From IMG/VR virus record IMGVR_UViG_2802429253_000011: a stretch of 12,094 nucleotides of DNA. One strand, given 5' to 3'. A model generated the notes under the pieces. The model was not told the origin of the DNA. It saw only the letters and a list, made by a program, of their open reading frames with translations, and made no database searches. Each line of letters begins with the position of its first letter. The first letter of the stretch is position 1. The position numbers and the translations under genes were made by a program. Positions 1-12,094 of the stretch are shown here, one piece after another. The stretch is from a virus. Taxonomy: Duplodnaviria; Heunggongvirae; Uroviricota; Caudoviricetes.

Positions 1-78
1 CCCCAGAGAAGTCAGTGGGTTACGCAGAGAATCGTAACGGGATACCAGATCAAGGGCCTGTCCAATGTGCATAAAAAA

Positions 79-106
79 ATCCGGAAACGAGTGAGCGTTT
101 CCGGAT
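79..106 (-). terminator. Intrinsic terminator hairpin downstream of mug
   Basis: Perfect 11-bp inverted repeat ATCCGGAAACG (79-89) / CGTTTCCGGAT (96-106) with 6-nt loop; on the minus strand it is followed by a 6-T run (complement of A73-A78). Lies 70 bp past the mug stop. Confidence 0.6.
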
Positions 107-176
107 TCTTACACAGCCACTGGATCGGTCAACTGATCCTTAACTGATCGGCATTACACCTTTCTGGTGGCGTTTT

Positions 177-683
177 TTATCGCCCACGCACTACCAGTGC
201 CTGATCCAACTCCCGATATGCCTCAACCAGTTTCTCCAGAGAAACTCGACTTAAACCGCTGGGATTCGGCAATACCCAAATCTGCGTCGAACCAATGGTC
301 AGCGTTTGTTTCCCCCACTGCACGCCTCGCTGACTGAATCCCTGTTCATACGCCTGCTTACCCAGAATCGCCAACGCCTGCGGCTGATAATTCTCAATTT
401 TTTCAATTAGCTTGCGCCCACCTGCGTGCAATTCCTGCTTTGACACTTCATTAGCCTGCACCGTTGGCCTGTCAACCAGTTTGGTGACGCCACAACGATA
501 ATCCAGCAGATGCTGCGCTTCCTGCGGCTTCAACTGACGGTCGGTAAACCCGGCCTGATAAATCACCTTCCAGAAGCGATTCGCCGGATGGGCAAACGGA
601 AAACCAGACTCCGCGGAAGAAAGACCCGGATTGATGCCACAAAACACCACACGCAATCCTGGCGCAAGAATATCGTCAACCAT
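177..683 (-). CDS. mug: G/U mismatch-specific DNA glycosylase Mug (uracil-DNA glycosylase family 2), 168 aa
   Basis: Translation from the internal Met ([23 protein letters not shown]...[14 protein letters not shown]...LVVRGR) matches E. coli Mug almost residue for residue as recalled. ATG at 681-683 is preceded by AGGAG; stop TAA at 177-179. The track ORF 177..782 adds a 33-aa upstream extension that runs into the tRNA promoter region and is not supported. Confidence 0.9.
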
Positions 684-769
684 ATTAACTCCTGAACAAC
701 ACAACCCGCAGGAAGTATAACGAATTGAAAACACATTGTTTATAAAAACAGCAGCCGCGCGGTAATGGC

Positions 770-798
770 TGGATTGCGACACGGAGTTACTTTATAAT
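770..798 (+). promoter_or_regulatory. Probable sigma70 promoter of the tRNA gene
   Basis: TATAAT at 793-798 followed by a GC-rich discriminator (CCGC) about 10 bp before the mature tRNA 5' end at 809; -35 region is weak. Confidence 0.35.
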
Positions 799-808
799 CC
801 GCTACCAT

Positions 809-884
809 GGCCCCTTAGCTCAGTGGTTAGAGCAGGCGACTCATAATCGCTTGGTCGTTGGTTCAAACCCAACAGGGGCCACCA
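809..884 (+). tRNA. ileX: tRNA-Ile2 (anticodon CAU, lysidine-type; ileX/ileY class), 76 nt including encoded CCA
   Basis: Cloverleaf readable by eye: acceptor GGCCCCT/AGGGGCC, D-arm GCTC-AGTGGTTAG-GAGC, anticodon loop CTCATAA (CAT at 842-844), T-arm GTTGG-TTCAAAC-CCAAC, 3' ACCA. Overall sequence resembles E. coli ileX rather than Met/fMet tRNAs. The position next to mug matches the K-12 ileX locus as recalled. Confidence 0.85.
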
Positions 885-892
885 TATCTATC

Positions 893-929
893 AAGGGGTT
901 ACGTTAACAGCGTGACCCCTTCGTTTTTT
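893..929 (+). terminator. Intrinsic terminator of the tRNA gene
   Basis: Stem AAGGGGTTAC (893-902) / GTGACCCCTT (912-921) with one mismatch, 9-nt loop, followed by CGTTTTTT (922-929). Confidence 0.6.
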
Positions 930-1425
930 CTAGGATACCTATAGGATACCGTGACAGAGTATAAGCAGGTATAAAAACAACAAGTTACGCAACATCATAC
1001 CTGTCATGAAACTTTAACTATCCGACATGATAGCTGGTCGATAATCACGGATAATCCGTTATGTGGATCCCCATATCGGCATCAGGCCCACCAGCGTGAA
1101 GCGTTTTTCATTTTTCGCGGGTATAAAAAATCGATGGGGCTGGCAGTCCGGAAGACGTCAGGGTACAGAGATTTGACCCGCCCCTCCCTGTGCATGGGCA
1201 CAATAAGTAACCGAAGGCGGAATTCCGCCCTCGGTACTCACATATGAGAAACGATATTTCTTCCTCTGATAACCAAAATATGGGTATCACAAGTAACCCC
1301 CAAAATCTGGGTGTTGCTCTTACTACCCAAACTACGGGTAGTTTCCGTAATTTCATGGTCGAGTTGCAGATCTGCAACTCACCCACCAGCCAACGCAATT
1401 TTGCGTTATCGGGAATATCAGCAAG

Positions 1426-1713
1426 TTACCGCCGCAGCCGTTCCGGCTTCTTCCACTGGTAAGTATTTTTCGCGCTCTCCCTCCGTTGTTGAGAACGGCG
1501 ACGGTATGCCAGCAACTCAAGAACTCTGGTTCGTATGTTGCGCATATCCACGCCGTTAAGCTCAATACCGTCACGGCGCATCACCTCAGCCACCACACGC
1601 GCGTAATTTTCAGCGGTGACTGTATCCGGCTGCGCGGCCTGTTCGTCAGCCAACTGGCTGATTCCACCAGCACAGCGGATTAATCGCAGTATTTCAGATT
1701 CGGTCATTATCAT
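1426..1713 (-). CDS. Hypothetical 95-aa protein, translationally coupled to the TerS-like gene
   Basis: Its ATG (1711-1713) overlaps the TGA stop (1710-1712) of the upstream gene in an ATGA arrangement. No family recognised. The basic C-terminal tail may be read-through of non-coding DNA, so it could be a 5' fragment. Confidence 0.4.
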   Translation of the reverse strand: MIMTESEILRLIRCAGGISQLADEQAAQPDTVTAENYARVVAEVMRRDGIELNGVDMRNIRTRVLELLAYRRRSQQRRESAKNTYQWKKPERLRR

Positions 1714-2195
1714 GCCTGTTTTGCGACCTCATTCACTACGTCATTTTTTACCATCCGGCTGATAATCTGATTACACAAATCGTCAATAATTGACTGCACT
1801 CTGTTTACTGCCATCGGTTTAAGCCCGGCATCACGTGCCAGAATATTGGGGAGTTTTGCCAGTTCCTCGCTTACGATTTCCCCCCATATAGCCATCTCTT
1901 TTCGCACATCATCGGCGGGTATGAGTTGCGCCGTTTCCTGTTCGAACCTGAGGCGCTCACGTTCGGACTGATACCAGGCCTTACGGTCATGTGGCTCCAT
2001 TTCTTCCAGTGATGCCGGAACGGGAAGATCAAGAAAACAGGTCAGAATGTCAGTCACCCGATAGAGTTTCAGCTTGTCATGCCCTCCGGCTGGCTGGATG
2101 TTTTTCAACCTTGCCGCCGCAGTCTGACGACATATTCCCGCTATCGCCGCCAGTTGATTAATGTTCAGCATCAGATTTTTCAGTTCTCGATCCAT
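1710..2195 (-). CDS. Terminase small subunit-like protein (lambda Nu1-type N-terminal HTH), about 161 aa
   Basis: N-terminal LNINQLAAIAGICRQTAAARLKNIQPAGGHDKLKLYRVTDIL parallels the lambda Nu1 DNA-binding motif (KKQLADIFGASIRTIQNWQEQGMPV...EVLYDSAAVIKWY). Start chosen at the internal ATG 2193-2195 with GGAG 5 nt upstream; the track ORF runs to 2282 without an RBS. Confidence 0.55.
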   Translation of the reverse strand: MDRELKNLMLNINQLAAIAGICRQTAAARLKNIQPAGGHDKLKLYRVTDILTCFLDLPVPASLEEMEPHDRKAWYQSERERLRFEQETAQLIPADDVRKEMAIWGEIVSEELAKLPNILARDAGLKPMAVNRVQSIIDDLCNQIISRMVKNDVVNEVAKQA

Positions 2196-2348
2196 ACCCG
2201 CTCCAGAATGTTTTAAACATGCATCTTGCGAACAACTTTCAGAAGAGGTCAAAAAATGCGCTATATGTTGAGCATAAAACAAGCAAAATTAACATACTAA
2301 AAATAAAAATACTTAAAATTCAATATCATATAAAGATGATGATGACGA

Positions 2349-2421
2349 ATGAAAATGCAAAAACTAGCCTTTTTCCGCGCCGCTCCCGCCCCGTGGCAGG
2401 CCACCTCACCGGGAGGACCCA
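2349..2421. repeat. Copy A of a 73-bp direct repeat (partner at 5699-5771)
   Basis: 69 of 73 positions identical to copy B, no indels, same orientation. GC-rich core with dyad CTCCCG...CGGGAG. Lies between a terminator and the TerS-like operon. Confidence 0.8.
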
Positions 2422-2466
2422 CCCAAAAAAGGCGACTGTCACTATTGTTTATGCTCCATGAGCGAC

Positions 2467-2488
2467 AAAACCGCCCGCAGGCGGTTTT
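2467..2488 (-). terminator. Intrinsic terminator (bidirectional) after the gpI-like gene
   Basis: Perfect hairpin AAAACCGCC-CGCA-GGCGGTTTT, 18 bp beyond the gpI-like stop (2506-2508), T-runs on both sides. Confidence 0.6.
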
Positions 2489-2505
2489 ACATAAAACGTT
2501 TTGTA

Positions 2506-3177
2506 TCAGCGACCAATCACCACAATCTGGCCGCCATCCCCTTCGTCTGCCGTGCTGATCTCCTGAGAGACCACCCGCGACCCCACGCGCATTTCACCGT
2601 ACAGAACGGGCAGAACATTGCCCTGGGCAACCATGTTATCCAGTGAGGAGAAATAGGTGTTCTGTTTGCCGTTATCTGTACTTGCTGCCGTGGGCGTCCT
2701 GGCTTTCGGTGCCAGCATCTGCGCCACACCACCAAGTACCATACTGGCACCGAGAGAAAACAGGATACCGGTCATACCACCGGCCCCAATGGCTGCCCCC
2801 CATGCTGTAAGGGTGGCTCCGGCGGTAAAGAATGATCCGGCAATGGCGGCTGCTCCCAGGACAATCTGGAATACACCACCTGACTTGGCCCCGGCGACTC
2901 TGGGAACAATATGAATCACAGCGCCATCAGGCAGAGTCTCATGTAACTGCGCCGTTAATCCGGACGTGCTGACATCCTGCCCGGCAATCCGTACCTGATA
3001 CCAGCCGTCGCTCAGTTTCTGACGAAACGCCGGGAGCTGTGTGGCCAGCGCCCGGATGGCTTCGGCCCCCGTTTTCACACGCAGATCGATGCGGCGGCCA
3101 AATCGTTGTAAATCCCCGTAAAGGCAGATGCGTGCCATGCCTGGTGACGCCAGAGGGAGTGTGTGCGTCGCTGCCAT
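2506..3177 (-). CDS. Lambda tail-tip assembly protein I (gpI) homolog, 223 aa
   Basis: Translation MAATHTLPLASPGMARICLYGDLQRFGRRIDLRVKTGAEAIRALATQLPAFRQ... with a Gly/Ala-rich hydrophobic C-terminal half matches lambda gpI as recalled, nearly identical over the full length. ATG at 3175-3177, TGA at 2506-2508. Confidence 0.7.
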   Translation of the reverse strand: MAATHTLPLASPGMARICLYGDLQRFGRRIDLRVKTGAEAIRALATQLPAFRQKLSDGWYQVRIAGQDVSTSGLTAQLHETLPDGAVIHIVPRVAGAKSGGVFQIVLGAAAIAGSFFTAGATLTAWGAAIGAGGMTGILFSLGASMVLGGVAQMLAPKARTPTAASTDNGKQNTYFSSLDNMVAQGNVLPVLYGEMRVGSRVVSQEISTADEGDGGQIVVIGR

Positions 3178-3266
3178 TTGTCGGTATACCTCTCTCGTTT
3201 GCTCAGTTGTTCAGGAATATGGTGCGGCAGCTCGCCGCCCCACGTGTTCAAAGTACCGCCTTGTTG

Positions 3267-5180
3267 TCATGCTCCATTCGATTTCAGCAATCCACGATAA
3301 TCGAGGGCCGCGACACCTGCATCTATGCGCACCTTCCAGGCGACACCATCAACAGTAAAGCCCACCTGCTCCTCAAGATATGGCGTATCCATACCATCAA
3401 GATAAGCGACTTCTATTGTGTCCATCCCCTTAGCTGCGGCTACATACCATTCCTTGCTATTGGCCTTATCAAGACGTGGCTCAACAATTACTTCTGCCAT
3501 ATCTTTCACCACGTTAATGATGCCGGGGTTCTGATTGATAGTGCCCTCATCACCAACCGGAAAGACTGATGACGATGACAGAATGGCGCGACGCGCGGCA
3601 GATTCCAGCGCGGCAGGGACCAGAACAAAAGCAGGGGTAATATTCAGTGAGTCGCCGTTAGCATCCTCCTGGAGGCGCATCAGCTTACGGGCTTCATCAA
3701 GCCCCACCATGTCCATATCCTTCGCAATAAGATTTTTATGATCGGCATGGAATAACGCTTTACCATCCGTAAACTTGCCGTTGCTGGTTAACAGGAGATA
3801 AACCAGATTGCCAACTGTTCTGGCGGCTGCGCGTCCCATCGCCATGGGGATTGTAGTTAACTGGGTCAGGTCATCGTTGATAATGGCCTGACGGGTAACG
3901 GAAAAAATATTCCCGTACGTGGCCAGCGCAATAGGTACACCTTTATCGCTGGTGGTGATGTATTTATATTCCGCACCTTCCGGTACTTTATCCAGCTTTG
4001 AAAAACCATTCAGACCAACGCGCTTTGCTTCATGAAAGTTTGAAAGCGAACCGGTACGCGTCCATTTCTGGAACGTTTCGCCGCTGTCCTGCCAGCCTTT
4101 CAGTACAGATTTTTCAGCCCCACCAGCCAGAATATGAGAAAAATCACTGCTGCTGTGTGTAAAAGCCGCATTAACAACCTGCGAGCGATTAATAAAACCA
4201 CTCACAGTGATACCACGATCAACCAGTGATGCCTGGGCCATTTCAAAAAGGCTCATCATCGCGTAAGGGTTGCCTCGTTCAGGGCGTTCATACCCAAGAC
4301 GGGAATAAAGCCCCTGACGAATTGCATCACCTGTTATGTTTCCGTTTCCGGCATAGATATGAGGCGGGGTATTTTTATTGGATGGCGTGGACTCGCGCCC
4401 CAGCTCGTTCAACAGCTTTTCACGGGCCATTTCCGGTGTACATGATGCATCTTCCAGACACGCCATTTTGATCCCGTCGTAACGACTGCCGAACAGGCTA
4501 AACACTTCACTTATTCCATTGATGCGTTTCTGTTCATTACCAGCAATATTTGCCGCTCCCTGTGGCGGTGTAATCATTCCTTTAATGGTTTCCGGCATAT
4601 GTAAAAAATCTCCTGTACGTTTCGATTCAATTCGCGCCATTGCTCTGACGGATGGCAACAATTCATCAGCAAAACCGTGCTTAAGGCATTCTTTCCCATC
4701 CATCCAGGTTTCATCCTCCAGCATGGCGGTAATTTCCTGTGCTGATTTGCCCGTTTTTCTGGCATAAGCAGGGATTAACACGGTTTCCACCTTATCCAGC
4801 AAATCAGCATAATCACGCATATCGCCAGCATTTCCGCCAGAGATCCCCCACGGTTTATGGATCATCATCATGGCGTTCTCCGGCATCACTACACGATCGC
4901 CAGCCATTGCGACCACCGAAGCCATTGAAGCCGCAACACCATCGATATAAACCGTAATGTCTGCCGGATGATTCCGTAGCAGGTTATAGATGGCGATGCC
5001 TTCAAACACATCACCACCTGGTGAATGGATCCTCAGATTGATATGTGAAACATCGCCAAGGGCTTTCAGGTCTTCCGCGAACTGCTTTGCAGTAACACCG
5101 AAGCCGCCAATCTCCTCATAGATAGATATATCCGCCGCTCCGCGAACATCCGCCGCCTTAATGGTGTACCAGCGATTCAT
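3267..5180 (-). CDS. Fusion of prohead protease (ClpP/S14-like) and HK97-fold major capsid protein, 637 aa
   Basis: N-terminus carries ClpP-like motifs (INLRIHSPGGDVFEGIAIYNLL, DGVAASMASVVAMAGD, MMMIHKPWG); the C-terminal ~400 aa has the composition and length of an HK97-family capsid protein. Start ATG 5178-5180 overlaps the upstream stop (TAATG). Confidence 0.8.
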   Translation of the reverse strand: MNRWYTIKAADVRGAADISIYEEIGGFGVTAKQFAEDLKALGDVSHINLRIHSPGGDVFEGIAIYNLLRNHPADITVYIDGVAASMASVVAMAGDRVVMPENAMMMIHKPWGISGGNAGDMRDYADLLDKVETVLIPAYARKTGKSAQEITAMLEDETWMDGKECLKHGFADELLPSVRAMARIESKRTGDFLHMPETIKGMITPPQGAANIAGNEQKRINGISEVFSLFGSRYDGIKMACLEDASCTPEMAREKLLNELGRESTPSNKNTPPHIYAGNGNITGDAIRQGLYSRLGYERPERGNPYAMMSLFEMAQASLVDRGITVSGFINRSQVVNAAFTHSSSDFSHILAGGAEKSVLKGWQDSGETFQKWTRTGSLSNFHEAKRVGLNGFSKLDKVPEGAEYKYITTSDKGVPIALATYGNIFSVTRQAIINDDLTQLTTIPMAMGRAAARTVGNLVYLLLTSNGKFTDGKALFHADHKNLIAKDMDMVGLDEARKLMRLQEDANGDSLNITPAFVLVPAALESAARRAILSSSSVFPVGDEGTINQNPGIINVVKDMAEVIVEPRLDKANSKEWYVAAAKGMDTIEVAYLDGMDTPYLEEQVGFTVDGVAWKVRIDAGVAALDYRGLLKSNGA

Positions 5181-5386
5181 TATTCCCCCACCGATGCAAA
5201 ACCATTCTGATTAAGCCAGGTGTTTACGGCATGTCTGACAATCTGCGCCACACCTGGTAATGGTTTGTCAGGATGATGATTTATATGGTCGATCCTGTAC
5301 TGCTTAAGGCGCATAACGGTCTGCGCATCCAGATGAACGGAACCACCCCTGATATCGCCCGTGTTCAGGTCATTAATACAACTCAC
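5180..5386 (-). CDS. Hypothetical 68-aa protein, first gene of the capsid operon
   Basis: GTG start at 5384-5386 preceded by a strong RBS (AAGAGGAAG); stop overlaps the capsid start. Function unknown. Confidence 0.5.
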   Translation of the reverse strand: MSCINDLNTGDIRGGSVHLDAQTVMRLKQYRIDHINHHPDKPLPGVAQIVRHAVNTWLNQNGFASVGE

Positions 5387-5487
5387 AGTAACTTCCTCTT
5401 ACTGACTAAACTGTGCACATTATTGATCGATAAAAGTGGTAGATAAACATATTTCTATCATAAAAACAGATTAATGAGATTCAGACA

Positions 5488-5931: not shown

Positions 5932-6154
5932 CTGTTCACCTTTTGATATTTTCTCTTTTAATTCATAATGTTAAGGGGTGAACAGTTTCACAAAAACTAT
6001 TCACCAACTGTTCACCACTGTTCACCCTTGAAGCTCAATAAACAATCAAAAAGGTGAACAGTGAATAGTTTGGTGAACAGTTCATAAATAACTGTTCACC
6101 CTATAATATACTGATATAAAAGATATTTATGACAGGGTGAACAGTGGTGAACAG
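5932..6154. repeat. Iteron array, candidate replication origin (P4 ori/crr-like)
   Basis: Eleven copies of CTGTTCACC or its complement GGTGAACAG (two of them variants, CTATTCACC and GTGAATAG) at 5932, 5977, 5997, 6008, 6018, 6053, 6061, 6072, 6092, 6136 and 6146, in both orientations, interleaved with AT-rich tracts (5941-5974, 6101-6134). Ends 20 bp from the primase stop. TGTTCACC is the type I iteron bound by P4 alpha protein. Confidence 0.75.
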
Positions 6155-6173: not shown

Positions 6174-7985
6174 TTAGCTATCGTCATTAGTGACCGATAC
6201 ACATGATGGCATCCAGTCTTCTGATTCCTCCGTCAGTGTCACGTTTGAACGCAAACCGTGCTTCGTTTTCCGTTTCATATACTCCCTGCCATATTCCGCC
6301 ATTGCCCCCGGCATATCTTTACCGAAGCGCGTCAGTGTTACAGGTTTACCAAACCCATGTGCCCTCATATAAGCCAGATAGGCATGATAGAGATACCTGC
6401 GTGGGCTGAATGGCACAATTTCAGCATTACCCACTAACAGGCCATCACACATTACCGACGCCATGAGATAGCCGCAGAAGTCCACCAGCGAATCCCCCTC
6501 TCGCTTTATCGCCAGTGCTTCTTCAGATTTCTGCTGCTCATATAACAGGCGTCTGGCTTCGTCCTGGTCAGCAAACCGTGTAAGCAGATGGCGAATCACT
6601 ACCGCCAGCTCACCTTCTATTTTTTCCGCCAGCATTGGATCGCGTTCGTTCTCCGGTACAACTTCCGAAAAATTGAATATCACCCGACGACGTGAGATCC
6701 CCCCGCTGCGGTCACTGAATGACATGGCGTTATTGTTAACCGCCAGCACTACTGCCGGAATACGCGTTGAGTAGGGGGCTTTGTGTTTCGGGTCAATTGC
6801 CACCTTGTCACCGCCTGTAATAGCCTTAATCCCTGCCCCATCACCAGCGTAGCGGGTCATATCCGGCATGATAATCAGCGAAAAGCCAACCACTAACGCG
6901 CGTTCCCTTGCATCTTCCAGCGCCTTCATGCTTGCCGATACTGTGTTGGCCTTACCCGCCAGCATGGTGCAAATCTCCGCCATCACGCTTTTACCACTTC
7001 CCCCTGGACCTGTTACCTCAATGAATAACTGCCAGTCGTACCGGTTCGCCAGCACCATGAATAATGCAGCCAGTACGCGATCCGCCTTGCGGTCATTCTC
7101 AGCCACCGAACGGCGTAACCACTTCCAGAAATTCGGCGCATGTGTTGCCAGCGTTTCCCCCTCTGCTGGTGGGCTGAAAGGTAATTCACTGGCAATTAAC
7201 AACCAGTCGTTTTTGTTATGCTCCCGAAAATTACCTGTTCTGGTATCAAATACCCCGTTACTGAATCCAATCAGGTTACGGGCTGTATTCCCCATAACAG
7301 GCAAACTTAACTTCATGGTATCGACCGCCGATTTAATGGCGTTCTGCGAATAGCTGATCTCCGCATCAATGAAAATCTGTGCCATAGCTCGCTGTAATTC
7401 TTTATCCTGTACTGGCTCCCATACAACGCCGTTGTAATGGTGAACAGTATCAGAGTCGGCATGAATCGCCAGTTCACCGCCATAATGTGCCAGGAGAACT
7501 TCGCCGCGTTGACTTGCTCCCATCTGGTTAAGCGCCAGTGATGAAGCGTTATCGTCTTTTACCCGCTCTTTTTTCTTTACAGGCAGTTCAACTACCTTTT
7601 TCTTTTCCGCCTGCTCTGCCCGTTCACGTTCCAGATATTCGCGCCAGTTCTCCCGTTTCTGGCTGTGCATTCCTTCAGGATAATAATCAGCATCCCTGAC
7701 ACCGGCCGCTGCCAGTTTCTGCCCGATGGTATTAACAAGCCCCGGACGCAATAACCCCGCCTGATAGAGACGCACACGATAGCGTCCGTCCGGTACGATT
7801 TGCAGGTTGTCCAGTTCGGCAAGTTGTTGCTCTCCAAGCCAGACAGGAGGCACGTTATCGCCAGCCAGTCGCCCGTCCTGTTCCTGCCACTGCTTCGCAT
7901 GTGCCCACGCATCACTACCCGCAAAAATGATGACTTCCGTCATTTTGTCACGTGGCTGGTGTTTTAAATTTGGCGCTTTTTTCAT
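6174..7985 (-). CDS. P4 alpha-type primase/helicase (N-terminal primase region, SF3 helicase with Walker A GPGGSGKS)
   Basis: Long ORF with VTGPGGSGKS, followed by residues typical of the phage/plasmid primase P4-family C-terminal domain. Start assigned to ATG 7983-7985, which overlaps the upstream stop (ATGA); track start is a GTG at 8000. Iterons lie directly downstream. Confidence 0.8.
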   Translation of the reverse strand: MKKAPNLKHQPRDKMTEVIIFAGSDAWAHAKQWQEQDGRLAGDNVPPVWLGEQQLAELDNLQIVPDGRYRVRLYQAGLLRPGLVNTIGQKLAAAGVRDADYYPEGMHSQKRENWREYLERERAEQAEKKKVVELPVKKKERVKDDNASSLALNQMGASQRGEVLLAHYGGELAIHADSDTVHHYNGVVWEPVQDKELQRAMAQIFIDAEISYSQNAIKSAVDTMKLSLPVMGNTARNLIGFSNGVFDTRTGNFREHNKNDWLLIASELPFSPPAEGETLATHAPNFWKWLRRSVAENDRKADRVLAALFMVLANRYDWQLFIEVTGPGGSGKSVMAEICTMLAGKANTVSASMKALEDARERALVVGFSLIIMPDMTRYAGDGAGIKAITGGDKVAIDPKHKAPYSTRIPAVVLAVNNNAMSFSDRSGGISRRRVIFNFSEVVPENERDPMLAEKIEGELAVVIRHLLTRFADQDEARRLLYEQQKSEEALAIKREGDSLVDFCGYLMASVMCDGLLVGNAEIVPFSPRRYLYHAYLAYMRAHGFGKPVTLTRFGKDMPGAMAEYGREYMKRKTKHGLRSNVTLTEESEDWMPSCVSVTNDDS

Positions 7986-8804: not shown

Positions 8805-8842
8805 AGCTACCTCGATACTCTCGTTATCGTTGGTGGTTAGAA

Positions 8843-8887
8843 GCCCTGCGAGTGGTAACGACACTTGCGGGGCTTTGTTTTTTGTTG
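8843..8887 (+). terminator. Plus-strand intrinsic terminator or attenuator in the divergent control region
   Basis: 12-bp stem (8843-8854 / 8862-8873) with two G-U wobble pairs that only pair in plus-strand RNA, 7-nt loop, then UUUGUUUUUUGUUG. Confidence 0.5.
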
Positions 8888-8899
8888 CACTTACTGTTA

Positions 8900-8950
8900 A
8901 TGTACGTACGTAATATTGATGATAATAGGAGTTACGTACGTACATGTCAA
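8900..8950 (-). promoter_or_regulatory. Leftward promoter (TTGACA-17-TATTAT) overlapped by a pair of 14-bp perfect inverted repeats (operator)
   Basis: On the minus strand, -35 TTGACA is at 8950-8945 and -10 TATTAT at 8927-8922 with a 17-bp spacer. ATGTACGTACGTAA (8900-8913) and TTACGTACGTACAT (8932-8945) are exact reverse complements and flank the RBS and start codon of the RHH gene. Confidence 0.6.
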
Positions 8951-9135
8951 CATTAAAGCGGGATAAATCACCACGCGGCGAGGGATGGTCGCCGACATTC
9001 CAGATACGAATTAGCAAAGAACTACGCCAGCAAGTAAACGAGGCAGCAACCGCCGATGGCCTAACCCTCGGCAATTGGTTTAAAGAATTAGCTCGTGCCG
9101 AACTAAAGCGACGCGGCATTGAACCTAAAGGCTGA
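8944..9135 (+). CDS. Ribbon-helix-helix (Arc/CopG-like) DNA-binding protein, 63 aa
   Basis: FQIRISKELRQQVNEAATADGLTLGNWFKELARAEL has the strand-helix-helix pattern of RHH regulators. AGGAG at 8927-8931; start codon sits inside the right operator arm. Confidence 0.55.
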   Translation: MSTLKRDKSPRGEGWSPTFQIRISKELRQQVNEAATADGLTLGNWFKELARAELKRRGIEPKG

Positions 9136-9138
9136 TGT

Positions 9139-9264
9139 ATGACTGAAAAGCAGACCGATAACAAACTTTCTCTACCAGAGAATAAACCAGCAGGCTTCTT
9201 ACCAAGAAAAATCCTTGATGAGATCAAACGCCGCCAGCGGCGCAAGGCCAAAGAGCAGGAGTAA
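9139..9264 (+). CDS. Possible 41-aa basic peptide, or 5' part of an interrupted gene
   Basis: ATG 4 nt after the RHH stop; ends at TAA 9262-9264; same frame as the next ORF. Confidence 0.2.
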   Translation: MTEKQTDNKLSLPENKPAGFLPRKILDEIKRRQRRKAKEQE

Positions 9265-9321
9265 CCATCACCAGCGCCGTGGTGCGGTGAACTGTGGCGC
9301 ACAGGGTTACAGGTATCTACG

Positions 9322-9501
9322 ATGACTGACAAATCATTAAAGAAATTATCCTCATCCAAGAAAAAACAACGCAAAAATGCGGTAAACGAACATGAACCGG
9401 AGAGATTCGCACCATGTGCGTTTATCCTTGAGAAGTACCTTAAAGAGTATTCTAGGAAAATACGCTCATTGCAGGCATGGCAGCGAATCGAGCCAGACTG
9501 A
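9322..9501 (+). CDS. Possible 59-aa Lys-rich protein, or 3' part of an interrupted gene
   Basis: ATG 9322-9324 to TGA 9499-9501; in frame with 9139-9264 and no other stops between them; followed by a terminator. Confidence 0.2.
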   Translation: MTDKSLKKLSSSKKKQRKNAVNEHEPERFAPCAFILEKYLKEYSRKIRSLQAWQRIEPD

Positions 9502-9566
9502 TAGCATTGCCCACCAGCCAACAACCTGGTATTCTGGATATGCTCAAGTTTAGTGTTATGCCACTG

Positions 9567-9594
9567 GCGGCCCTCTGCGGTCGCCTTTGTTTTA
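9567..9594 (+). terminator. Intrinsic terminator of the rightward small operon
   Basis: Stem GGCGGCC (9567-9573) / GGTCGCC (9579-9585) with one G-U pair, 5-nt loop, then UUUGUUUUAUG. Confidence 0.5.
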
Positions 9595-9611
9595 TGTGCC
9601 ATCACTCCCCC

Positions 9612-9821
9612 TTACACCGTCTGCGTTCTGCGAGTGGATGCAAGATAAGCATCGAGATCAGTGCGCATATACAGCACTTTGCGCCCCAGCTTATGGAAAG
9701 GGATTTTTACCTTGCCAGTACAGGCCCAGTTCGCCAGCGTTTGATTGTTAACGCCAAGGTAGGCAGCAGCTTCAGCACGTGTAAGGCGGTCAGTTGATAA
9801 ATCAGATTTCTTTAAATTCAT
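9612..9821 (-). CDS. AlpA/Xis-family helix-turn-helix DNA-binding protein, about 69 aa
   Basis: LTRAEAAAYLGVNNQTLANWACTGKVKIPFHKLGRKVLYMRTDLDAYL fits the small AlpA/excisionase-type HTH family. ATG 9819-9821 chosen; an alternative GTG at 9830 gives 72 aa. Confidence 0.7.
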   Translation of the reverse strand: MNLKKSDLSTDRLTRAEAAAYLGVNNQTLANWACTGKVKIPFHKLGRKVLYMRTDLDAYLASTRRTQTV

Positions 9822-9882
9822 ATCTATCACCGTGTACTTCTAAGTAACAACGGTGATAAATATCAATCAATGGGTATTTTGT

Positions 9883-9968
9883 TTTTAGCCCAATAGCCAG
9901 TTGCTGTGGGGAGGTTACCAGTTATTTAGCCTTAATAGCCAGCTATTAAGATACACTAGCCAGCTATT
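9883..9968. promoter_or_regulatory. Operator-like repeats upstream of the AlpA-like gene
   Basis: Two ~24-bp direct repeats (9883-9907, 9925-9948) each containing the ATAGCCAG motif; the second holds the perfect palindrome AATAGC-CA-GCTATT (9934-9947); a third copy TAGCCAGCTATT is at 9957-9968. Confidence 0.45.
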
Positions 9969-10689
9969 GGGGGTGAACAAGTTCAAACGAAGAATATTTA
10001 TCAGGTCTTGGTGGTTGTGCTCCTGATTCTTTAATCCATTTATCCAGAGTGTTTTTACTTACTTTCCCATGATAGTAAACAGAAAGCTCGTTCAATAAAC
10101 CTGTTTTACTGGCTTTAGGGTACTTTTCCCATGTTAGTTTAATTACGTGCATAACTTCATTGTAATAATGATTTCTTGGTTTGCGCGCTTTTTCTTTCTG
10201 TGATAAGGATAAAGCATCTTTTATTTTTTTATCTTTTTCATGGTTCGATATAATTTCTTCAAAAAAGTCATTAAGCAATAACTCAACACCAACCCTAGTA
10301 AGTTTGTCTGCGTGATTACGCATTCCGACATGGTACAATGCAACTGCTGAATTTAAAGTATCGACAACCTGACAAGATAGTTTACTATCAAATATTAAAA
10401 AACCACATGAATCCATTCTTATAGCTAATTCAATAGGATATTGCTCGATTTCTCTTAATTCTAAACCATAACACAAAAGAAATTCTCTTGTTGGATACTT
10501 TGATTTATAAAAATAATCTCTTATATCATCAATCAAGCGTTTTATAGCCTCTATGGTGGAGTTTTTCGGGGATAAAGATACAGGAACGTTTAAAACTGAA
10601 GAGTCTCGCCCACCAGTAATTAAATCATTCATAACCGAATAAATAATATATTGTTTGACCGATATATTGTTATCACCCATATATGTCAT
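9964..10689 (-). CDS. Hypothetical protein (238-241 aa), AT-rich, translationally coupled to the integrase
   Basis: ORF noticeably more AT-rich than its neighbours by eye. Candidate ATG at 10678-10680 overlaps the integrase stop (ATGGGTGA); track start is at 10689. No motif recognised (no Walker A, no transmembrane segment). Confidence 0.55.
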   Translation of the reverse strand: MTYMGDNNISVKQYIIYSVMNDLITGGRDSSVLNVPVSLSPKNSTIEAIKRLIDDIRDYFYKSKYPTREFLLCYGLELREIEQYPIELAIRMDSCGFLIFDSKLSCQVVDTLNSAVALYHVGMRNHADKLTRVGVELLLNDFFEEIISNHEKDKKIKDALSLSQKEKARKPRNHYYNEVMHVIKLTWEKYPKASKTGLLNELSVYYHGKVSKNTLDKWIKESGAQPPRPDKYSSFELVHPQ

Positions 10690-12094
10690 TCTTTTCTTGT
10701 ACTATAGCAAATAGTAAACGACGTTTTTCATCATCACTCATGCCCTCCAGTGCGGAAAGTAATTGCGCATCGATAGATTTTTTACTCTCCACCAGCCCGG
10801 CATGTTCCAGAATTGCCCGTTCTATCCGTGATGCTGGCTCCAGCAGTTCATCAGCACCGAAATGTAAATACCCCTGCGTTACGTCGGCACTTCGCATAGT
10901 GCGGTGATTCATCAGGCGCTTGAGGATGTAATTACCCACGCCCACCAGCTCAGCAACCGTTCCGAACGTCCGGCGTGCGTCGTGCCACTTAAACGGGACA
11001 GGGAAGAGCATTTCATCGTTCGCCTCAGGAATGGTAGCCGCGCTTATCCGGTCTATGATGTGCCGTGTCTCCTGAATCACTCCCTTCACGCCAGGAAACA
11101 CCAGCACATCATCAGCAGCTTTGTTTTTTAGCCTGCGAAGAAACATTTTCCGCAACGTATCAGTGATCGGCAGTTCAAGCGGATCCCCGTTTTTCGTGGT
11201 GTCTATCCAGAAAAAGCGACCGCCCATATTCACGCGATCCCACGTAAGGCCAAAAACTTCTGATTTCCTCAGTCCGGTAAACAGTGCCATTTCCACGGCA
11301 TCACATACCGTAACAGCTATATCATCCCTTTCCTGTTCGCCCTGGTCGCGCACAGCAGCTACAGCAGCAAACCAGCGGGGAAAATCATGCAGGCGGATAC
11401 GTTCCGTTTTTCTTACCGTTCCGTGCCACTGGCGCTTGGTGCTCAGTACCAGAGTCGGCGGATCCGGTAAAAGAGTATTACCCGCATCATCACGGTAATG
11501 ATCATGCGCAAACCGACACACAGCACGTAGCGCACGCGCCCATAAATCGGCCTGTGCCTTGCTTCCTGTACCAACCCCAGCCCGTAACGTGGTTTTATCA
11601 GCACCGAACCATACAGCCCCATCAGTGATGGCCTTATGCCGTTGTTCCACCCGTTCGCGGGAAATACTGGCGAGGGTATGGGCCATCCAGTCACCGGAAT
11701 AATTCTGTAATATGCTGCGGTACTGTTTTTCTGTGGAGGGTTTCAGGCGGTGGCCACGATTTTTTACGTAGGCGTCAATCGCCTCACTCAGCGTTATCAT
11801 GGCCTTGTTGTTAGTGCGCTTTGCTATGTTCGGATTTATCCCCGTTGTGGCGACTTCGCCAAGGAGTTCCATAGCTTTAGCCCTGGCATTATCCACGCTC
11901 AGATCAGGAAAACGCCCCAGCGTTGCACGAATAAATTTTCCGTTACGCTTACGGGAAATGCAGAAACTTTTCACACCAGACGAACCTACACGGACACGCA
12001 GCCCGTTAACCTCCGTATCACCATATTCGACCTGTCCATGTTCCGGCGTTGGCAGTTCTGCAATTTTTACTTTAGAGAATCTGAATAATTTCAC
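10673..12094 (-). CDS. Tyrosine recombinase/integrase (P4-type with N-terminal arm-binding DUF4102-like domain), 5' end at window edge
   Basis: N-terminus GLRVRVGSSGVKSFCISRKRNGKFIRATLGRFPDLSVDNARAKAMELL is typical of P4-family integrase arm domains; C-terminal HDARRT and downstream Tyr region fit the catalytic domain. The only in-window start is a GTG at 12092-12094, so the true start may lie beyond the window. Confidence 0.8.
   Translation of the reverse strand: MKLFRFSKVKIAELPTPEHGQVEYGDTEVNGLRVRVGSSGVKSFCISRKRNGKFIRATLGRFPDLSVDNARAKAMELLGEVATTGINPNIAKRTNNKAMITLSEAIDAYVKNRGHRLKPSTEKQYRSILQNYSGDWMAHTLASISRERVEQRHKAITDGAVWFGADKTTLRAGVGTGSKAQADLWARALRAVCRFAHDHYRDDAGNTLLPDPPTLVLSTKRQWHGTVRKTERIRLHDFPRWFAAVAAVRDQGEQERDDIAVTVCDAVEMALFTGLRKSEVFGLTWDRVNMGGRFFWIDTTKNGDPLELPITDTLRKMFLRRLKNKAADDVLVFPGVKGVIQETRHIIDRISAATIPEANDEMLFPVPFKWHDARRTFGTVAELVGVGNYILKRLMNHRTMRSADVTQGYLHFGADELLEPASRIERAILEHAGLVESKKSIDAQLLSALEGMSDDEKRRLLFAIVQEKNDIYG

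What the first reader, a model, noticed from the sequence alone, without database searches (positions are those of the whole stretch)
9883..9968. Direct and palindromic TAGCCAG repeats in front of the AlpA-like gene
Three related sites, one a perfect 6-2-6 palindrome (AATAGC-CA-GCTATT), lie between the upstream ORF stop and the alpA start. They are positioned to be an operator for a dimeric regulator that controls alpA, which is the likely induction switch of such islands.
Basis: seen in the sequence. Interest (0 to 1): 0.4.

Follow-up and report, generated by a model that had tools for sequence, protein, structure and literature searches.

The report
Phased operator array controlling satellite alpA
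The repeats are real and form four evenly spaced palindromic protein-binding sites in front of the switch gene (alpA) of a phage-parasitic island; comparison with about 80 related islands points to the uncharacterised protein encoded just upstream, not AlpA, as the protein that reads them.

Summary
On the gene (minus) strand there are four, not three, 14-bp sites (core TAnCnnGnTA). They sit at exactly 21-bp spacing (9892-9968), and the first contains the stop codon of the upstream ORF.

About 80 non-identical relatives share this layout:
- int, then an ORF of 200-266 aa;
- 2-4 palindromic 5-2-5 sites at 20-22 bp spacing;
- a promoter with a poor -35 and a conserved -10;
- an SD-sequestering hairpin, then alpA.

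In 12 non-redundant arrays of the window's class, core positions are conserved (1.79 bits) and spacers are not (0.93 bits). The site sequence changes from island to island together with the third helix of the ORF's conserved C-terminal three-helix domain. It does not change with AlpA or with the 68-aa protein. Relatives without the ORF lack the array and instead carry a P2-type TGT-N12-ACA dyad at about -54.

Best reading: the array is the upstream control region of an activator-dependent alpA promoter, and it is read by dimers of the ORF238 protein. That protein's variable N-terminal domain may sense the helper phage.

Nothing has been shown biochemically. Physical linkage confounds the covariation. 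Whether the protein activates or represses alpA is open. Verdict: a new variant of a known kind, of moderate interest.

The parts
9955..9968 (-). Site 1 (AATAGCTGGCTAGT on the gene strand), centre about -109.5 from the inferred start of transcription. It contains the TAG stop codon of ORF238 (9964-9966).
9934..9947 (-). Site 2 (AATAGCTGGCTATT), a perfect 6-2-6 palindrome (9-2-9 with flanks 9931-9950), centre about -88.5.
9913..9926 (-). In relatives it reads AATAGCTGGTAAT.
9892..9905 (-). Site 4 (AGCAACTGGCTATT), the promoter-proximal site, centre about -46.5. It abuts the poor -35 region.
9883..9888 (-). Weak -35-like hexamer (CTAAAA), 18 nt upstream of the -10-like hexamer. The -35 is poor throughout the family.
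   Evidence: inference
9859..9864 (-). -10-like hexamer GATATT. A hexamer with at least 4 of 6 matches, A2 and T6 starts at -43 or -42 from the ATG in 44 of 49 non-redundant relatives.
   Evidence: The resulting start site (about 9852) puts the Ogr-type dyad of ORF-less relatives at about -54.
9850..9858 (-). Hairpin arm 1 (UAUCACCGU). The inferred transcription start (about 9852) lies at its 3' end, so mRNA from the alpA promoter would lack it.
   Evidence: (I2)
9825..9833 (-). Hairpin arm 2 (ACGGUGAUA), which contains the Shine-Dalgarno sequence GGUGA of alpA.
   Evidence: 84.6% of cells paired in 39 sequences, 21 double-change cells, many U.G wobbles.: -21 kcal/mol, z -6.5.
9612..9821 (-). 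alpA (69 aa, HTH_17 / excisionase-type winged HTH).
9964..10680 (-). ORF238, an uncharacterised protein whose start overlaps the int stop by 8 nt. The N-terminal ~160 aa are variable. The C-terminal ~75 aa (9967-10191) form a conserved three-helix domain and are the candidate reader of the sites.
10673..12094 (-). Tyrosine integrase (473 aa), first gene of the int-ORF238 unit that reads towards alpA with no terminator in between.

Best explanation
The repeats are a four-unit operator array. Each unit is a 5-2-5 palindrome (ATAGC-YR-GCTAT, conserved core TAnCnnGnTA). The units are spaced two helical turns apart, so bound dimers lie on one face of the DNA. They occupy about -46.5 to -109.5 upstream of an alpA promoter that has a conserved -10 and a poor -35. 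The protein that reads them is most likely the product of the gene that ends inside site 1, ORF238, acting as a dimer through its conserved C-terminal three-helix (HTH-like) domain. ORF238 is co-transcribed with int and probably translationally coupled to it. Its variable N-terminal domain is a plausible sensor of a helper-phage protein. This would make ORF238 plus the array the helper-responsive switch for alpA in this lineage of islands. A second layer acts on the RNA. Transcripts reading through from int-ORF238 fold a hairpin that buries the alpA ribosome-binding site, whereas transcripts started at the alpA promoter lack the 5' arm and are translatable. Shown here: the sites, their phasing, their conservation, the fixed geometry, the covariation with ORF238 helix 3, and the RNA pairing covariation. 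Inferred: binding by ORF238, the transcription start site, sensing of the helper, and the sign of regulation. I lean towards activation, because the array replaces an Ogr-type activator site found in ORF-less relatives.
For: (1) Exact 21-bp register of four sites.
(2) The spacer length is modular: 142 nt with four units and 121 nt with three units.
(3) Footprint in 12 non-redundant arrays of this class: core positions carry 1.79 bits against 0.93 elsewhere. The in-register mask is the best of 21 shifts. C, G and T of the core are invariant in all non-coding units.
(4) When 14-mers are read at fixed positions anchored on the -10 hexamer (-46.5, -67.5, -88.5, -109.5), site-like palindromes fall in register in nearly all classes.
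(5) At least nine helix-3 signatures of the ORF each go with their own site consensus. Examples: VS[KR]N[TA]L with TAGC-NN-GCTA; VSEETLAR and similar with ATAAC-GC-GTTAT; PV[AV]GT[VI]E with AAATC-CA-GATTT; PEPGTIK with TTAAG-TA-CTTAA.
(6) Islands with the same ORF class but AlpA only 54-71% identical keep the same site class and register: window vs L117 and L158, L043 vs L084 and L095, L017 vs L124.
(7) Islands with an identical AlpA DNA-binding region but a different ORF class have different sites, for example L010 vs L014.
(8) The 8 unique alpA loci of this subfamily without the ORF lack the array. Six of them carry TGT-N12-ACA at about -54 instead, against 1 of 78 ORF+ loci.
(9) The ORF's C-terminal 75 aa are near-invariant while its N-terminus falls to 25-40% identity.
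(11) No sigma-70 consensus promoter and no terminator lie between the ORF and alpA.
(12) The hairpin is supported by covariation and by folding energy.
Against: - There are no binding or expression data.
- The array physically abuts the 3' end of the ORF, so co-inheritance alone could produce the ORF-site association. Crude whole-segment similarity measures show only a linkage-like gradient.
- The transcription start is inferred, not measured.
- Two ORF classes (VDEGTVDS, ISEETIKY) have less regular arrays.
- A site centre at -46.5 is not a textbook activator position.
- A constitutively co-expressed activator would need to be held inactive, which is unproven.
Confidence: 0.6

Rival explanations
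1. The sites are AlpA's own autoregulatory binding sites. AlpA dimers or filaments would bind the phased repeats and activate their own promoter.
For: In EcCICFT073 and EcCIMP1, AlpA boosts its own promoter (PMC6092414 read; PMC11773190). Excisionase-type HTH proteins often bind phased repeats (general knowledge).
Against: All AlpA proteins compared share the recognition-helix core QTLANWA, because the search selected for it. Even so, the site classes differ widely. Each variant of the two residues preceding that core (NA, NS, SP and others) occurs with several site classes. L010 and L014 have identical AlpA DNA-binding regions but different arrays. ORF-less islands with the same AlpA type have no array. 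The AlpA proteins studied experimentally belong to a different subfamily, and EcCICFT073 has neither the ORF nor these sites.
Confidence: 0.12
2. The sites are read by a protein not encoded in the island, such as a helper-phage activator or a host factor. ORF238 would have an unrelated function.
For: Helper phages induce alpA by an unknown factor. In ORF-less relatives the same position holds a site typical of a helper-encoded activator: TGT-N12-ACA, the P2 Ogr consensus (PMC3931495).
Against: E. coli alone carries at least three site classes, which argues against a single host factor. Site class follows ORF helix 3 in every class examined, and the array is present only where the ORF is. A helper factor would have to co-vary with an island gene through linkage alone.
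Confidence: 0.15
3. The array is a protein roadblock or structural element at the end of the int-ORF238 unit. It would only stop read-through into alpA and would have no role at the alpA promoter.
For: There is no intrinsic terminator after ORF238. The first site overlaps the stop codon. The hairpin shows that read-through into alpA is selected against.
Against: A roadblock does not need a fixed distance to the promoter. Yet the proximal site is centred at -46.5 or -47 from the inferred start in classes A, A', B and C, and the spacer changes only in whole 21-bp units.
Confidence: 0.06
4. The repeats are replication-origin iterons, integrase arm-type sites, or excisionase sites of attP.
For: Phased repeats of about 21 bp are typical of iterons. 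The island encodes an integrase with an arm-binding domain.
Against: The origin is identified elsewhere: nine TGTTCACC iterons at 5933-6153, downstream of the primase gene. Salmonella relatives keep the same array with a different replicase (AAA_25 instead of D5). The sites are palindromes rather than direct repeats. They lie more than 2.1 kb from the int-proximal end of the island.
Confidence: 0.02

Closest known systems
OmpR-type tandem activator arrays (ompF/ompC upstream regions); recalled from memory, not tested
   Same: Several dimer sites of about 20 bp lie head to tail on one DNA face, from about -40 to -100. They directly abut a promoter with a poor -35.
   Different: The sites here are palindromes rather than direct-repeat half-sites. 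The candidate protein is not a response regulator. Activation is not shown.
SaPI Stl, the master regulator of Gram-positive PICIs (PMC6092414 introduction, and memory)
   Same: An island-encoded DNA-binding regulator sits next to int. It has one conserved DNA-binding part and one diversified part that, in SaPIs, binds helper-phage proteins. It controls the operon that starts the island's cycle.
   Different: Stl is a repressor transcribed divergently from its target. ORF238 is co-directional with alpA, its sites lie upstream of the -35 rather than over the core promoter, there is no sequence or fold relationship, and the sign of regulation is unknown.
P2 Ogr / P4 delta-dependent late promoters (TGT-N12-ACA; PMC3931495). 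The -55 position is from memory.
   Same: The promoter design is the same: a good -10, a poor -35, and an upstream site for an activator. ORF-less sister islands have exactly this dyad at about -54 in front of the same alpA promoter and hairpin.
   Different: The window has no TGT-N12-ACA. The dyad is replaced by four palindromes plus an island-encoded candidate regulator.
Phage repressor/operator specificity groups (lambdoid immunity regions); general knowledge
   Same: Multiple related palindromic operators co-vary with the recognition helix of a cognate HTH protein, giving discrete specificity classes among mosaic relatives.
   Different: Operator spacing and position differ (upstream of -35, strict 21-bp register). 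The protein family is unrelated. No lysogeny or immunity function is implied.
IS10/IS50 'fold-back inhibition' of read-through transcripts (from memory)
   Same: The hairpin's 5' arm lies upstream of the gene's own start site. Only externally initiated transcripts would sequester the ribosome-binding site.
   Different: This concerns the hairpin next to the finding, not the repeats themselves. The start site here is inferred.

Membership tests
Operator array of a dimeric HTH regulator | Palindromic (dyad-symmetric) sites | tested here: met
   Site 2 is a perfect 6-2-6 palindrome. The class consensus is TAnCnnGnTA. Other classes are also 5-2-5 palindromes.
Operator array of a dimeric HTH regulator | Site cores conserved more than spacers in related elements | tested here: met
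   1.79 against 0.93 bits; the in-register mask is the best of 21 shifts.
Operator array of a dimeric HTH regulator | Site sequence co-varies with the recognition helix of a cognate protein | tested here: met
   At least nine ORF helix-3 signatures each have their own site consensus. This is confounded by physical linkage.
Operator array of a dimeric HTH regulator | Specific binding by the protein | not testable with these tools
   Needs EMSA or footprinting.
Operator array of a dimeric HTH regulator | The candidate protein has a recognisable DNA-binding fold | tested here: inconclusive
AlpA autoregulatory sites of Gram-negative PICIs | Sites follow AlpA specificity | tested here: not met
   The same AlpA DNA-binding region occurs with different arrays. 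ORF-less islands with the same AlpA type lack the array.
P2/P4-type late promoter | TGT-N12-ACA dyad upstream of the promoter | tested here: not met
   Absent from the 160 nt upstream of alpA in the window and in 77 of 78 ORF+ loci. Present in 6 of 8 ORF-less relatives.
Replication-origin iterons | Direct repeats next to, and co-varying with, the replicase | tested here: not met
   The origin iterons (TGTTCACC, nine copies) lie at 5933-6153. The array is unchanged in islands with a different replicase.
attP arm-type or excisionase sites | Within a few hundred bp of the recombination core | tested here: not met
   The island ends are beyond 12094 and near the tRNA at 809-884. The sites are more than 2.1 kb from either end.
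SaPI Stl-type master repressor system | Regulator divergently transcribed from its target, with operators over the target promoter | tested here: not met
   ORF238 and alpA are co-directional. The sites lie upstream of the -35.
SaPI Stl-type master repressor system | Regulator inactivated by binding a helper-phage protein | not testable with these tools
   There is only an indirect hint: a hypervariable N-terminal domain on a constant DNA-binding domain.

The most novel reading that the evidence does not exclude
ORF238 and its roughly 120 cluster-level relatives could be the missing helper-sensing master regulators of a large lineage of enterobacterial phage satellites. The hypervariable N-terminal domain would capture a helper-phage protein. 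The constant C-terminal domain would sit as four phased dimers on a private operator array and switch the alpA promoter. The discrete site and helix-3 classes would define induction-specificity groups, so that co-resident satellites do not cross-talk.
Probability: 0.3. Interest if true: 0.75.

Novelty: new variant of a known kind. Interest (0 to 1): 0.55.

Why it matters
How Gram-negative phage-inducible islands sense their helper is an open question. The 2018 founding paper states that no repressor is known and that the phage inducer was still being sought (PMC6092414). The later papers found here still treat alpA induction as a black box (PMC11773190; bioRxiv 10.1101/2022.09.08.507074).

This analysis supplies, for one widespread island lineage, four things that ordinary experiments can test:
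- a concrete cis element with base-level predictions;
- a candidate trans factor with a domain structure suited to sensing;
- a predicted specificity code (helix 3 against half-site);
- a predicted second, RNA-level safeguard.

It also shows that sister islands solve the same problem with a P2 Ogr-type site. This suggests the upstream module is swapped according to the type of helper.

Tried and rejected
- Rfam gathering scan of the window found only the tRNA.
- The consensus sigma-70 scan found nothing in 9500-10300.
- Searching the ORF C-terminal 87 aa in the word-indexed protein database returned one hit.
- Foldseek of the full-length ORF model against PDB and BFVD gave nothing with E <= 0.001. 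AFDB50 was unavailable.
- A profile search against PDB sequences gave nothing meaningful.
- Three quantitative association measures were too crude and are not used as support. Whole-segment identity correlations give array~ORF-C 0.42, array~proximal region 0.37 and array~AlpA 0.17, which is compatible with a linkage gradient. A strict regex classification left most arrays unclassified. The 6-mer cosine is low (0.09) even for same-class arrays when the sequences have diverged.
- A strict chained-palindrome detector found arrays in only 25 of 76 ORF+ loci, against 0 of 8 ORF- loci and 14 of 420 shuffles.
- I tried to exclude the 68-aa protein through EcCICFT073. That failed because the proteins are unrelated. 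It was excluded instead through L101 and L001.
- EcCICFT073, the experimentally studied PICI, turned out to lack the ORF and the array, so its published reporter data cannot be transferred directly.
- I considered and rejected an RNA hairpin or terminator role for the palindromes: a 2-nt loop is impossible and no U-tract follows.
- I noted that the hairpin arms (TATCACCGT) resemble a lambda operator half-site (from memory). I dropped the idea because the arms co-vary with G.U wobbles, as RNA helices do.

Full report
**What is in the window**

All genes of interest lie on the minus strand. In order they are:
- a 473-aa tyrosine integrase, 12094..10673;
- a 238-aa ORF with no Pfam, NCBIfam or informative PHROG match, 10680..9964, whose start overlaps the int stop by 8 nt;
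- a 142-nt spacer;
- a 69-aa HTH_17/excisionase-type AlpA, 9821..9612;
- an Icd-like gene, a DUF4222 gene and a D5-type primase-helicase;
- a ClpP-capsid fusion, a lambda gpI-like tail gene and a DUF1441 small terminase;
- then a tRNA (CAT anticodon, annotated tRNA-Ile in RefSeq) and mug.

This is an E. coli phage satellite, related to P4-like and PICI elements and carrying its own capsid genes, inserted at the tRNA next to mug. The int-ORF-alpA segment is 100% identical to E. coli 06-00048. It is found at 80% coverage or more in only 22 of 5426 complete E. coli genomes.

**The observation**

TAGCCAG occurs three times in the window, all in the spacer. The 14-mer with up to 3 mismatches is strongly over-represented: 7 matches against 1.14 expected, 0 of 200 shuffles. 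The palindrome is perfect and extends to 9-2-9.

Read on the gene strand, there are four sites, not three:
- AATAGCTGGCTAGT (9968..9955);
- AATAGCTGGCTATT (9947..9934);
- AATAACTGGTAACC (9926..9913);
- AGCAACTGGCTATT (9905..9892).

Their CTGG centres are exactly 21, 21 and 21 bp apart. Self-similarity of the region peaks at offsets 21 and 42, and 0.3% of shuffles reach the observed value. The stop codon of the ORF is part of site 1.

**Conservation**

I collected relatives in four ways:
- contigs encoding homologues of the ORF;
- a scan of one genome per species with AlpA;
- other E. coli islands;
- a scan of IMG/VR for the AlpA codons QTLANWA.

Of 139 usable loci, 102 have a member of the ORF family directly upstream of alpA. 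This family was defined by an HMM of the conserved C-terminal domain. The distance from the ORF stop to the alpA ATG is quantised: 142 nt in 36 loci, 141 in 18 and 121 in 10. Stacking the spacer in 21-nt rows shows four units in the 142-nt class and three in the 121-nt class.

In 12 non-redundant arrays of the window's class, the non-coding units 2-4 carry 1.79 bits at the core positions T A. C.. G. T A, against 0.93 bits elsewhere. This mask is the best of all 21 possible registers. The C, G and T of the core are invariant.

**Who reads the sites**

All classes of array are 5-2-5 palindromes at 20-22 bp spacing, but the half-site differs:
- ATAGC-YR-GCTAT (the window's class);
- ATAAC-GC-GTTAT;
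- AAATC-CA-GATTT;
- TTAAG-TA-CTTAA;
- ATAGCC-T-GGCTAT, and others.

I then read 14-mers at fixed positions anchored only on the -10 hexamer. Site-like palindromes fall in register in nearly all classes, and each signature of the ORF's third C-terminal helix has its own consensus.

Three kinds of natural swap bear on the binder:
- Islands with the same ORF class but AlpA only 54-71% identical keep the same site class and register.
- Islands with identical AlpA DNA-binding regions but different ORF classes have different arrays, for example L010 against L014.
- The eight unique alpA loci of this subfamily that lack the ORF lack the array.

The 68-aa protein at 5183-5386 is 100% identical in L101, which has a class-B array. 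It is absent from the 25-kb L001 locus, whose array is identical to the window's.

**The ORF238 protein**

The protein has a hypervariable N-terminal ~160 aa and a near-invariant C-terminal ~75 aa. An exhaustive profile search finds 123 cluster representatives, all 190-280 aa long with the domain at the extreme C-terminus.

The fold evidence is therefore weak, and the covariation evidence is the main support. Its main weakness is that the array abuts the ORF's 3' end, so linkage alone could contribute. Crude whole-segment statistics cannot separate the two explanations.

**The promoter**

No consensus sigma-70 promoter and no terminator lie between the ORF and alpA. A -10-like hexamer (at least 4 of 6 matches, with A2 and T6) starts 43 or 42 nt before the ATG in 44 of 49 non-redundant relatives. 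The -35 is poor throughout. This predicts a transcription start near 9852.

An independent check supports that prediction. Six of the eight ORF-less relatives carry TGT-N12-ACA, the consensus of Ogr-dependent P2 late promoters (PMC3931495), centred 85 nt before the ATG. That is about -54 from the inferred start, which is where such dyads normally sit (from memory).

With this start, the window's sites are centred at about -46.5, -67.5, -88.5 and -109.5. The proximal site is at -46.5 or -47 in classes A, A', B and C. The array therefore occupies the place of an activator site in front of an activator-dependent promoter, at a fixed distance. This is why I favour a promoter-control role over a mere roadblock, and why I lean towards activation. 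The sign of regulation is not established.

**The hairpin**

Immediately after the -10 hexamer, arm 1 (9858..9850) pairs with arm 2 (9833..9825), which contains the Shine-Dalgarno sequence. In 39 diverse sequences:
- 84.6% of cells pair;
- three pairs show compensatory double changes (21 cells);
- U.G wobbles are frequent;
- no shuffle out of 500 reaches the observed covariation, and slid controls score far lower.

RNA that starts upstream folds at -21 kcal/mol (z -6.5). RNA that starts at the inferred start site is unstructured.

The simplest reading is that read-through transcripts from int-ORF238 cannot translate alpA, while promoter-initiated transcripts can. This is the logic known from IS10 (from memory). 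It rests on the inferred start site.

**Comparison with the literature**

In Gram-negative PICIs, alpA is the master activator. It is switched on by the helper phage through an unidentified factor, and no repressor is known (PMC6092414; PMC11773190; bioRxiv 10.1101/2022.09.08.507074). A general map of these islands mentions only int and AlpA in the integration zone (PMC10111431).

The prototype EcCICFT073 has a different AlpA type, no ORF between int and alpA, and different repeats. Its data therefore cannot be transferred directly.

I found no description of the ORF family or of the array. This judgement is limited to the open-access library searched.

**Verdict**

- The repeats are a genuine, conserved, helically phased operator array. 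Confidence: high.
- They belong to the control region of alpA. Confidence: fairly high.
- The best candidate reader is the upstream ORF238 protein rather than AlpA. Confidence: moderate, about 0.6.
- Whether it activates or represses, and whether its variable domain senses the helper, remain hypotheses.

Noticed in passing
window 5933-6153 (also 7439-7446 and 9972-9979): TGTTCACC occurs 11 times in the window against 0.36 expected. Nine copies, in both orientations, cluster just downstream of the primase-helicase gene, so this is very probably the island's replication origin. The octamer equals the P4 type I iteron as I recall it. The copy at 9972-9979 lies in the last codons of ORF238 and is not conserved in relatives.
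   Followed up: partly
window 9825-9833 / 9850-9858: A covarying RNA hairpin buries the alpA Shine-Dalgarno sequence. The conserved -10 hexamer sits directly 5' of arm 1, so only read-through transcripts would contain both arms. The loop carries conserved GTTAAC and ATACA motifs of unknown role.
   Followed up: yes
L019, L020, L071, L129, L131, L150 (about 85 nt before the alpA ATG): ORF-less relatives of this alpA module (L019 and L020 are Xenorhabdus genomes; the other four are IMG/VR viral contigs of unchecked host) carry a TGT-N12-ACA dyad, the P2 Ogr-type activator site, at about -54 from the inferred start. This suggests direct activation by a P2-like helper.
   Followed up: partly
window 9964-10680 and relatives P0002-P0012: ORF238 homologues that share near-identical C-terminal domains and arrays have N-terminal domains only 25-40% identical. 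This points to frequent domain shuffling at a boundary near residue 160.
   Followed up: partly
window 8805-9611: Between alpA and the Icd-like gene lie two small plus-strand ORFs (8944-9135 and 9139-9264). They end at a plus-strand terminator-like hairpin (9566-9585) that abuts the alpA stop. Other islands carry a YlcI/YnfO gene there. The 334-aa minus-strand ORF across this region looks spurious.
   Followed up: no
window 1-5400 vs L001: The late half of the island is mosaic. The window has a ClpP-capsid fusion (3267-5180) and a lambda gpI-like tail gene (2506-3177). Strain 06-00048 has an identical int-ORF-alpA segment but a separate capsid gene, a decoration protein and an IS21 insertion.
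   Followed up: no
L167 6160-6260 and 6440-6500 (EcCICFT073): The int-alpA spacer of the prototype PICI contains runs of (G/A)ACAAC-type direct repeats at about 10-bp spacing. These are candidate AlpA or Int sites in that different lineage.
   Followed up: no
window 5183-5386: This 68-aa protein upstream of the capsid gene is possibly ribbon-helix-helix (PHROG 4934, function unknown). It is shared at 100% identity with an island of a different array class, so it is unlikely to read the alpA array.
   Followed up: yes
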